From: the human T2T-CHM13v2.0 reference genome, Homo sapiens
Length of the DNA stretch: 64,000 nucleotides
NCBI RefSeq assembly: GCF_009914755.1
Contig: NC_060937.1
Strand: one strand, 5' to 3'
Each line of letters starts with the position of its first letter. The first letter of the stretch is position 1. Below are positions 12,985 through 51,339 of the stretch, piece after piece. The translations under genes were made by a program, and so were the position numbers. Below the pieces are notes generated by a model. The model saw only the letters and a list, made by a program, of their open reading frames with translations. It made no database searches and was not told where the DNA came from.

Positions 12985-13902
12985 TTATTTTCTTTTTTTA
13001 AAACTTTTATTTCAGTTTTGGGAGTACATGTGAAGGTTTGTTATATAGGTAAACTCATGTAACTGGGGTTTGTTATACAGATTATTTTATCACCCAGGTA
13101 TTAAGCCTAGTACCCAATTTTTGTCTTTTCTGCTTCTCTCCCTCTTCCCACCCTCCACCCACAAGTAGTCCCCAGTGTCTGTTGTTTTCTTCTTTATGTT
13201 CATGAGTTCCCATCATTTAGCTTCCACTTGTATGTGAGAACATGTGGTATTTGGTTGTCTGTTCCTGTAATAGTTTGCTGAAGATAATAGCCTCCAGCTC
13301 CATCCATGTTCCCACAAAAGACATAATCACATTCATTTTTACGGCTGCATAGTATTCTGTATTGTATATGTACCACATTTTCTTTACCCAATCTGTCACT
13401 GATGCACATTTAGGTTGATTCCATATCTTTGCTATTGTGAGTAGTGCTGCAACGAACATTTACATCCATCTGTCTTTATGGTAGAATGATTTAAATCACT
13501 CTGGATATATACCGAGTAATGGTATTGCTGGGTTGAATGATATTTCTGACCTCAGGTCTTTGAGGAATTGCCACATTGTCTTCCACAATGGTTTAACTAT
13601 TTTACACTCCCACCAACAGTGTATAAGTATTCCCTTTTCCCCACAACCTCACTAGCACCTGTTATTTTTTGACTTTTTAATAATAGTCATTCTGACTGGT
13701 GTGAAGTGGGTATCTTTCAATTTGCATTTCTCTAATGATCAGTGATACTGAGTTGTTTTTTTTTTTTTTCATATGCTCGTTGGCTGTATGGATGTCTTAT
13801 TTTGAAAGGTGTCTGTTCATGTCCTTTGCCCACTTTTTAATGATGTTGTTTTTATCTTATAAATTTGTTTAACTTCCTTATAGGTGCTGGATATTAGACT
13901 TT
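12985..13902 (-). mobile_element. L1PA (about PA13-16) 3' end
   Basis: Antisense L1 3'UTR and ORF2 C-terminus (MFVAALLTIAKIWNQPKC). Confidence 0.9.
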
Positions 13903-49262: not shown

Positions 49263-50518
49263 CTATTTTTAGAACAGTTTTAGAAAATTTGTGCAAAAAG
49301 TACCTAGATCCCATATACCCGCCCCTCCACATTTCTTCTATTATAAACATCTAGCTTTCGAGTGGTTCACTACTAAATGAAAGGAGTCCATCTCTAAAGG
49401 CCATATACTGTAATTTCAACTGTAAGGTGTTATTAAAAAGGTAAAACTATAGAGACAGGAAAAAGATCAATGATTGCCAGGGGTTCTGGGAAATGTGAAG
49501 CAGATGGATGAATAGATGGAGCACAGGGTATTTTTAGGGCAATAGAACTATTCTGTATGATCGCATAATAATGGATGAATGTCATTATGGAATCACCAAA
49601 ACCTATAGAAATATACAACACAAAGAATGTAACCTAATGTAAACTATGGATTTTAGCTAAGAATAATATATCAAGTTTATCAAATGTTTCTAGTATGGAT
49701 GAGGAGTTGTATTTTTTTTAGTATATTTTAATTACTTTAAAAAGCCAAATTTGTCAAATGAATAACCTATTGAATGGTTCAAAACTACAACATTCAAAAT
49801 AATATCAGTAAGAGTGATAAAATAAGGGCTTGACCAATCTATATTTTACAATTAATAACTGTCATTAATACATCATTACCAAGCAATCCTAAGACACTGT
49901 GATCTAGATGATTCCAGATGTTCTAGAAATTTTGACTATTTCAAGTCTCTGTCTTCTGTGTAATTTAGTGAAAAAGCACCTGCCTCTCATGATGAAAATG
50001 TAAGGTGAATGCGTATTTGCAGGTATTCAAACATTGTAGCAAATAGCACAAACCTTGAGGTATATGAATTAAACTTATATAACTATGAGAATCAAAATTT
50101 GTCTCTGTCACTGAATAACATTGGGTGAAGGAATTATTCTTTCACAGTCTTAGTGTAAATAATAACTGATCTCATAGAATCTTAAGAGACTTGAATGGTA
50201 TAATATTTAAAATTCCTTAGCAATCATTTGTACCAAATCATGTAATTATTTTATTGATTGGAAAAGAAAACTAATCATATCACTAATACTTAAAGAGTGT
50301 TTAATATGAATGTCAGCTGCTGTCATAAAAACTTTACAGATATTAGCTCTTTTAGTCTTCACAGCAAACTTTTGAGTAACATTTATCATTTTTCTCACTT
50401 TATAGGTGAAGAATATTGAGGTATAGAGATTTTAACCACTTGGTTGACATCACATTCCAATTAGACGGGGAGGCAGAACTTGAAATCAGACATGCTGGCT
50501 TTAAATGTTCCTCTTTTG

Positions 50519-51125
50519 TCAGATTTTCTGCAGGATCTAGAACTAGAGGTACCATTTGACCCAGCCATCCCATTGCTGGGTATATACCCAAAGGATTGTA
50601 AATCCTGCTGCTATGGAGACACATGCACACGTATGTTTGTTGCAGCACTGTTCACAGTGGCGGGGACTTGGAGCCAAACCAGATGTCCATCAGTGATGGA
50701 CTGCATTAGGAGAGTGTGGCGTATATACACCATGGAGTGCTATGCAGCCATAGAAAAGGATGAGTTCATGTCCTTTGTGGGGACATGGATCTGGAAACCA
50801 TCATTCTGAGCAAATGATCACAAGTACAGAGAACCAAGCATCTCATGTTCTCACTCATGGGTGGGGGTTGAACGGTGAGAGTACTCGGACGCGTTGTGGG
50901 GGACATCGCACACCGGGGCTTGTCTTGGGGTGGGGAGGGGGGAGGGATAGCATTGGATGATATGCCTAATGTGAACGAGTTGATGCATGCAGCACACCAC
51001 ATGGCACATGTGTGCATATGTAACAAGCCCGCACGTTGTGCACATGTACCTCAGTACTTGAAGTATAATAACAAATAATAATAAAAAAAAGCAGGTTGGC
51101 ATGGTATGGTTGGGTCAAAAAAAAA
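50519..51125 (+). mobile_element. 5'-truncated L1PA (about PA4-6) 3' end, heavily A>G mutated, with probable 3' transduction
   Basis: ORF2 C-terminus (DLELEVPFDPAIPLLGIYPKD), 3'UTR G-tract, two A-tails, TSD aaatg(t/c)tcctcttt at 50503-50516 and 51123-51136. Confidence 0.92.
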
Positions 51126-51339
51126 TGCTCCTCTTTGAAGAGCTTTTTTAACTGCCTGTCTAGGTTTTGTCATTTACGTGTGCACAAATACTATTATAAT
51201 ACTAATTCATTTCACATATTTTAGATAACTCCTAAGTTTTAAAATTAAAAGATTTTTTAAAAAGTATTGCAATCTTATCTGAACTAGAATTCTTTAAAGG
51301 CAAATGTTTCAATGTGTTCGTTGGAAAAGAGACAGAGCC

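What the first reader, a model, noticed from the sequence alone, without database searches (positions are those of the whole stretch)
50533..51090. L1 copy that looks like a genomically fixed ADAR (A-to-I) hyper-edited RNA
Seen: against the L1PA 3' consensus (recalled, hand-aligned) this 550-bp copy has roughly 40-45 A>G changes on the L1 sense strand and only about two T>C. Examples: gaaata>gaggta, tataaag>tatggag, acaatagcaaagac>acagtggcggggac, taagaaaatg>taggagagtg, ggaatact>ggagtgct, aacaatg>aacggtg, gtatac>gtgtgc, ttaaag>ttgaag. Changes cluster in A-runs, and the A directly 3' of a G is usually spared (gAacc>gAgcc, gAata>gAgtg). The in-window L1 at 13.0-13.9 kb (minus) keeps A at several homologous sites (ACAATAGCAAAGA, AAGAAAATGTGG). 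Established: ADAR deaminates A in dsRNA, disfavours a 5' G, and reverse transcriptase reads inosine as G. APOBEC3 editing gives sense-strand G>A instead, and GC-biased conversion is strand-symmetric. Inference: a hyper-edited L1 transcript completed target-primed reverse transcription in the germline, so RNA editing became heritable DNA change.
Basis: partly seen in the sequence, partly recalled or inferred. Interest (0 to 1): 0.88.

Follow-up and report, generated by a model that had tools for sequence, protein, structure and literature searches.

The report
RNA-edited L1 fossils in human DNA
This human jumping-gene (L1) copy has a quarter of its A bases turned to G on one strand only, in the pattern of the RNA-editing enzyme ADAR, so it is likely a DNA copy of an edited RNA that probably became heritable, and a second clear case lies on chromosome X.

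Summary
Observation confirmed. Against the column majority of 29 related genomic L1 copies, window 50533-51070 carries A>G at 45 of 186 A sites but T>C at 3 of 119 T sites (p=4e-8); the 29 copies carry 1-8 A>G. Rates by 5' neighbour are T 40%, A 38%, C 11%, G 6%. The insert has a 14-bp target-site duplication, an A tail and a 26-nt tag matching one chr4 site (25/26), the marks of L1 retrotransposition. It is not alone. A full-length chrX copy has 136 of 529 A>G confined to its last ~1.4 kb. It shares no other variant with this copy, and its ORF2 edits show no selection (79 missense seen, 76.9 expected). Copies on chr1 and chr10 are probable. Pooled context matches ADAR (5' T>A>C>G; 3' G enriched, p=0.0035). 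Best reading (0.87): ADAR hyper-edited L1 RNA was reverse-transcribed into the germline genome. The duplex partner, the enzyme and fixation in primates were not tested. Edited RNA copied into DNA is reported for cultured-cell pseudogenes and BLV proviruses; ten literature searches found no report of such L1 copies in the reference genome, but two key papers could not be read.

The parts
50503..50516 (+). 5' copy of a 14-bp target-site duplication, preceded by TTT (TTT/AAAT, close to the L1 endonuclease site; consensus recalled and in PMC5974252 passage)
   Evidence: best ungapped match between the two junctions, 13 of 14 identical
50517..50531 (+). about 15 extra bases at the 5' junction that do not match L1; origin unresolved
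   Evidence: aligned copies differ here; no match to 50519-50533 with <=2 mismatches in the loci then held or elsewhere in the window
50532..51066 (+). 5'-truncated L1PA 3' end (last ~340 nt of ORF2, stop TGA at 50869-50871, then 3' UTR) with 45 A>G changes from 50548 to 51060; L1PA5-like label is recalled, not tested
   Evidence: ORF2 end placed by homology to the open frame of copy L015
51067..51090 (+). A-rich L1 tail with AATAAA at 51080
51091..51116 (+). 26-nt non-L1 tag matching G000:C4:14353592-14353617 (25 of 26; 32 of 34 with the A-rich start); likely 3' transduction from a source L1 absent from that site in this assembly
51117..51125 (+). second A-run, likely the poly(A) that primed reverse transcription; overlaps the 3' duplication
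51123..51136 (+). 3' copy of the target-site duplication

Best explanation
This is a 5'-truncated L1 copy with 45 of 186 sense-strand A sites changed to G, likely because its RNA was hyper-edited by ADAR before L1 reverse transcriptase copied it into chr13, probably in the germline. Shown: the strand-specific A>G excess, the ADAR-type neighbour pattern, the duplication, tail and chr4 tag, and an independent chrX copy with a sharply bounded edited stretch. Inferred steps: (1) a source L1 at the chr4 site was transcribed past its own tail and cut 26 nt downstream; (2) its 3' end paired with antisense L1 RNA, since the segment has no strong fold of its own; (3) ADAR deaminated about a quarter of the A's; (4) ORF2p, made from unedited message or supplied in trans, copied inosine as G by target-primed reverse transcription; (5) the source allele was lost and the copy was inherited. 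The copy has no evident function; it is a fossil of an editing event.
For: A>G 45/186 vs T>C 3/119; 51 of 52 other copies have 1-8 A>G. Pooled over four edited copies, 5' neighbour T 77/173, A 101/326, C 31/257, G 10/157; 3' neighbour G 48/137, A 85/328, C 42/217, T 44/231; 3' G odds ratio 1.9, p=0.0035 after 5' base and copy. G depletion upstream and enrichment downstream is the ADAR pattern (PMC4365171 passages). Duplication, tail, tag. chrX copy: full length (~6.0 kb, 12-bp duplication), 136/529 A>G in the last ~1.4 kb and 3/269 in the 850 nt before, no other variant shared with chr13, missense edits 79 vs 76.9 expected. An ordinary copy of the segment folds no better than shuffles, z=-0.06. 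Precedent: 3 of 235 pseudogene insertions made in L1-expressing cells carry ADAR-type clusters (PMC11702581 passage).
Against: No duplex partner was identified. No inverted L1PA copy lies in the window, in 8 kb past the chrX tail or in 0.8 kb before it. The inverted 873-bp L1PA 24 kb past the chr4 site is a lead only (about 1 in 5 by chance, my estimate) and lies beyond the transcript's cut site. The 5' W preference is shared with polymerase eta (recalled). In this copy alone the 3' G effect is slight (8/28 vs 37/158). A reporter study found no editing in >2.5 kb of L1 RNA (PMC5224506). This copy also has 5 adjacent non-A>G pairs and 4 deletions (baseline maximum 2 and 2), which editing does not explain. 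The mirror control is weak (3 hits).
Confidence: 0.87

Rival explanations
1. An error-prone DNA synthesis step made the changes: polymerase eta or iota, or L1 reverse transcriptase under dNTP imbalance, put G opposite T while making the second strand.
For: WA preference resembles polymerase eta (recalled). Second-strand errors would be sense-strand A>G. This copy has extra doublets and deletions.
Against: 40-55% of WA sites changed over 0.5-1.4 kb, far above polymerase error rates known to me; A>T plus A>C is only 3 vs 45 here; 3' G enrichment; dNTP imbalance should also give first-strand T>C, which is at background; chrX has only 1 doublet.
Confidence: 0.04
2. ADAR deaminated the sense DNA strand itself in an RNA:DNA hybrid with antisense RNA, after or during insertion.
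For: ADARs can edit the DNA strand of hybrids (cited in PMC7693803 passage); this would give the same neighbour pattern.
Against: The hybrid formed during reverse transcription would give sense T>C, which is absent. A later R-loop has no reason to stop at the insert's ends or to favour one strand; changes run from 16 nt inside the 5' end to the tail, and 0 of 3 mirror-pattern hits were T>C outliers.
Confidence: 0.04
3. The copy inserted unedited and was later overwritten by cDNA of an edited L1 RNA (gene conversion); for chrX, reverse transcriptase may have switched from an edited to an unedited RNA.
For: The sharp boundary in the chrX copy fits a conversion tract or a template switch as well as a duplex end.
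Against: No local inverted partner; here the edits span the whole insert; it needs an extra rare event. It still requires ADAR-edited RNA.
Confidence: 0.04
4. Ordinary causes: an unrecognised G-rich subfamily, GC-biased conversion, neutral mutation or an assembly error.
For: A few sites are G in several other copies (up to 7 of 29).
Against: Best genomic match is 84%; strict columns still give 35/175 vs 3/109; T>C is not raised; chr13 and chrX share no non-A>G variant; the pattern recurs at independent loci with their own duplications.
Confidence: 0.01

Closest known systems
ADAR-edited processed-pseudogene insertions made by L1 ORF2p in cultured cells (PMC11702581; passages seen)
   Same: Edited RNA copied into the genome by L1 machinery, with clustered A>G (T>C) confined to duplex regions; 3 of 235 pseudogene insertions.
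   Different: Those are somatic, experimental, cellular mRNAs edited in inverted Alus. Here the L1 RNA itself carries the changes, in old copies of the reference genome.
A-to-G hypermutated proviruses (BLV, PMC8025556; passages seen)
   Same: Integrated DNA copies with A>G clusters ascribed to ADAR1.
   Different: Exogenous retrovirus, somatic, about 70-bp clusters of 7 or more changes; here a non-LTR element with 45-136 changes over 0.5-1.4 kb.
APOBEC3-edited retroelements in vertebrate genomes (PMC4866542; passages seen)
   Same: Hypermutated retroelements that integrated anyway and were inherited.
   Different: G>A from cDNA deamination in LTR elements; that screen filtered for G>A and against A>G, and the word ADAR does not occur in its main text. 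Here G>A is at background (2 of 114).
ADAR hyper-edited RNA clusters (PMC4365171; passages seen)
   Same: Dense A>G clusters with upstream G depletion and downstream G enrichment.
   Different: Those exist only in RNA; here the changes are in genomic DNA.
5'-truncated L1PA insertion with 3' transduction (established knowledge)
   Same: Duplication, tail, short tag with a second A-run.
   Different: No source L1 lies at the tag's chr4 site in this assembly; the body is hypermutated.

Membership tests
L1PA retrotransposon insertion (TPRT product) | Homology to the L1 3' end | tested here: met
   82-84% to the 39 best other genomic matches, the gap being mostly A>G; related chrX copy encodes RVT_1 and L1 ORF1 domains
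L1PA retrotransposon insertion (TPRT product) | Target-site duplication and A tail at an endonuclease-type site | tested here: met
   14-bp duplication, 13/14; TTT/AAAT; tail 51067-51090
L1PA retrotransposon insertion (TPRT product) | Empty site in an outgroup genome | not testable with these tools
   no other primate genome is held
L1PA5 subfamily | Diagnostic positions against Dfam/Repbase consensus | not testable with these tools
   no consensus library; label is recalled
ADAR hyper-edited sequence | Dense A>G on one strand with other classes at background | tested here: met
   45/186 vs 3/119
ADAR hyper-edited sequence | 5' G depleted | tested here: met
   2/34 vs 43/152, p=0.004; pooled 10/157
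ADAR hyper-edited sequence | 3' G enriched | tested here: met
   pooled four copies p=0.0035; not evident in this copy alone (8/28 vs 37/158)
ADAR hyper-edited sequence | A long dsRNA substrate | tested here: inconclusive
   no intrinsic fold; no local inverted copy at chr13 or chrX; one inverted 873-bp L1PA 24 kb past the chr4 site
ADAR hyper-edited sequence | Dependence on ADAR activity | not testable with these tools
   needs an experiment
L1 3' transduction | Tag matches one distant unique site, followed by its own poly(A), inside the duplication | tested here: met
   only other 0-mismatch hit among 11 hits; 25/26 identity
L1 3' transduction | Source L1 directly upstream of the tag's origin | tested here: not met
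   no L1 3' end upstream on chr4; so filed only as 'likely', with a lost source or a template switch
APOBEC3-edited retroelement | Sense-strand G>A excess | tested here: not met
   G>A 2 of 114

The most novel reading that the evidence does not exclude
The human genome holds an undescribed class of L1 copies that are fossils of ADAR hyper-editing: germline L1 RNA is edited across long antisense duplexes after it has made its proteins, still inserts, and so turns RNA editing into heritable, clustered A>G mutation. The copies would date ADAR's neighbour preference across primate evolution, and edit boundaries would map ancient sense-antisense L1 duplexes.
Probability: 0.6. Interest if true: 0.8.

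Novelty: new variant of a known kind. Interest (0 to 1): 0.72.

Why it matters
[quoted passage not shown] These copies suggest that endogenous L1 RNA was at times heavily edited and still inserted. That makes the question directly testable: count sense A>G against T>C outliers among all L1, Alu and SVA copies. The lack of selection on the chrX ORF2 edits implies editing came after translation or that ORF2p acted in trans. Such copies also look older than they are and can escape word-based masking.

Tried and rejected
Subfamily explanation: rejected. Siblings of this copy: none; the best other match is 84% and the tag has one other exact-pattern hit. Shared origin with chrX: rejected; 27 of 45 G sites are shared but no other variant, and outside the search stretch sharing is 16 vs 12.3-12.5 expected by context, p about 0.07. 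The tag's single A>G (1 of 4 A's, after a G) is not counted as an edit. One search used a mistyped pattern; its 11 hits were ignored. A first synonymous/missense count crossed frameshifts and was replaced. Candidates checked and found ordinary: 10 of 11, 8 of 8, 6 of 8, 4 of 4 new sense-pattern hits and 3 of 3 mirror hits, L097, L099, L100. L095 and L098 remain possible; L096 could not be scored. Searches showed no clear outlier. The MIR flank test had only one comparator. The genome could not be scanned whole, so no frequency is given. Earlier findings were not open. Carmi 2011 (10.1038/ncomms1525) was not held; a recalled lead in PMC10191854 was not borne out (no ADAR or editing hit in its main text).

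Full report
Observation. The stretch is the 3' end of a primate L1 on the + strand. A search of the genome gave 39 other matches at 82-84% identity among the 40 scored of 10,685 candidates; 29 were fetched. Against their column majority the copy shows 45 A>G and at most 6 of any other class. On well-agreed columns this is 45 of 186 A sites against 3 of 119 T sites, p=4e-8; the 29 copies have 1-8 A>G each. The result holds against the five nearest copies (42/182 vs 3/119) and on columns where at least 90% of 60 copies agree (35/175 vs 3/109). By 5' neighbour the rates are T 17/42, A 20/53, C 6/57, G 2/34. The left flank shows no excess in a weak one-comparator test.

Anatomy. A 14-bp duplication (50503-50516 and 51123-51136, one mismatch) brackets the insert at a TTT/AAAT site. 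Inside are about 15 unexplained bases, the L1 fragment, an A-rich tail, a 26-nt tag and a second A-run. A degenerate search for the tag found 11 hits with up to 2 mismatches; only the window and chr4:14,353,592 had none. The chr4 match is 25 of 26 and ends at CA. No L1 3' end lies upstream of it. The simplest reading is a 3' transduction from a source L1 that was later lost, leaving the empty allele; a template switch from a chr4 RNA is the alternative. Both are inferred. Non-A>G changes number 21 (about 4%), against a mean of 11.7 in copies selected for closeness, which suggests an age of tens of millions of years; the L1PA5-like label is recalled.

Other copies. Searching with the most edited 95 bases gave one clear outlier on contig 23 (taken as chrX) at 88%. 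It has 64/187 A>G against 3/119 T>C over the same segment; the other 51 of 52 copies in that alignment have 1-8. It is full length, about 6.0 kb, with a 12-bp duplication and L1 ORF1 and RT domains. Its changes fill the last ~1.4 kb (136/529; T>C 12/278) and stop sharply: 3/269 in the 850 nt before; A content further upstream stays near 40% through ORF1 and ORF2, though comparators were too thin there for site counts. It shares no non-A>G variant with the chr13 copy, so the events are independent. Searches with its edited stretches led to 8 candidates, 2 of them outliers: a chr1 copy (25/183 vs 4/101 in its last ~500 nt) and a short chr10 copy with a ~110-nt cluster (16/55 vs 1/34). Those stretches were chosen after viewing; whole-segment tests give p=0.003-0.04 for chr1 and 0.06-0.14 for chr10, so both are probable only. 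Of 6 later candidates, L095 (9/49 vs 0/34) and L098 (13/195, 12 in the last two bins) are possible. A pattern demanding G at preferred sites gave 7 hits, 3 of them the chr13, chrX and chr1 copies; a mirror pattern demanding T>C gave 3 hits and no outlier. The sense pattern came from this copy, so this control is weak. Almost all copies were found by likeness to edited ones; no frequency follows.

Which process. Pooled over the four copies, the 5' order is T 45%, A 31%, C 12%, G 6%, and 3' G is enriched (48/137; odds ratio 1.9, p=0.0035). Upstream G depletion with downstream G enrichment is the ADAR pattern (PMC4365171, passages); the finer order U>A>C>G is recalled. Inosine in the template RNA gives sense A>G only. 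Editing of the first-strand cDNA would give T>C and APOBEC3 would give G>A; both are at background. Polymerase error fits the 5' preference but not the rate, the purity or the 3' G bias. An ordinary copy of the segment folds no better than shuffles, so a separate antisense partner is needed; none was found near chr13 or chrX. An inverted 873-bp L1PA lies 24 kb past the chr4 site, a lead only. In the chrX copy 79 of 110 ORF2 edits are missense against 76.9 expected without selection, so the inserting ORF2p was likely not made from the edited RNA: editing followed translation, or the protein or the template came from elsewhere.

Prior knowledge. Passages read: PMC11702581 (3 of 235 pseudogene insertions in L1-expressing cells with ADAR-type clusters in inverted Alus); PMC8025556 (three BLV proviruses with A>G clusters); PMC4866542 (APOBEC screen, G>A only); PMC2873906 (A>G clusters treated as RNA editing, DNA editing as G>A); PMC5224506 (no editing in reporter L1 RNA); PMC4982230 (question open for Alu); PMC5974252 and PMC7693803 (nothing on such copies in the passages shown); PMC10191854 (no hit). 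No supplement was read. Ten searches listed no paper describing A>G-hypermutated L1 copies in a reference genome. The library lacks most subscription papers; Carmi 2011 was not held and a 2015 review by Knisbacher and Levanon (recalled) was not seen. Either may mention such elements.

Verdict. It works like ADAR hypermutation of retroviral and pseudogene RNA and is the A>G counterpart of APOBEC-edited retroelements. What appears new is its occurrence in old L1 copies of the human genome, at least twice clearly. New variant of a known kind; interest 0.72. Fixation, the enzyme and the duplex partner remain untested.

Noticed in passing
L068 and L079 (G000:C23:~24701390-24707420, - strand): Full-length L1PA with a 12-bp duplication whose last ~1.4 kb alone is A>G hypermutated (136 of 529), with a sharp boundary; a stronger case than the window's copy.
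   Followed up: yes
L080 (G000:C1:~3615900-3616380, +): Younger-looking L1PA copy with 25 of 183 A>G in its last ~500 nt and none of 68 after G; probable edited copy.
   Followed up: partly
L081 (G000:C10:~71397180-71397540, -): Short 5'-truncated L1PA with an apparent short duplication and a ~110-nt A>G cluster; probable edited copy.
   Followed up: partly
L095 (G000:C2:~78279840-78280010, +) and L098 (G000:C4:~83620940-83621120, -): Short A>G clusters near the 3' end (9 and 12 changes); possible, but found by likeness to the chr10 cluster.
   Followed up: partly
L042:1494-1527 (G000:C4:14353585-14353618): Origin of the 26-nt tag, with no L1 upstream: looks like the empty site of a lost source element.
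   Followed up: partly
L058:3826-4695 (G000:C4:14377426-14378295, -): Inverted 873-bp L1PA 3' fragment 24 kb past the tag's origin; covers the whole edited segment but may be chance and may be younger.
   Followed up: partly
window 50790-51055: Five adjacent non-A>G pairs and four small deletions in this copy, above the 30 baseline copies (maximum 2 and 2); unexplained.
   Followed up: partly
window 50517-50541: The extra 5' bases loosely resemble an inverted copy of the first L1 bases (fold-back at the junction); judged by eye only.
   Followed up: no
window 50532-51090: This L1 is not among the longest masked stretches listed with the finding although it is longer than all of them; editing may hide it from word-based masking.
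   Followed up: no
window 13136-13897 (-): Older L1 fragment, 77% to an L1PA copy, without the Gs at the quoted sites; too diverged and distant to be a likely duplex partner.
   Followed up: partly
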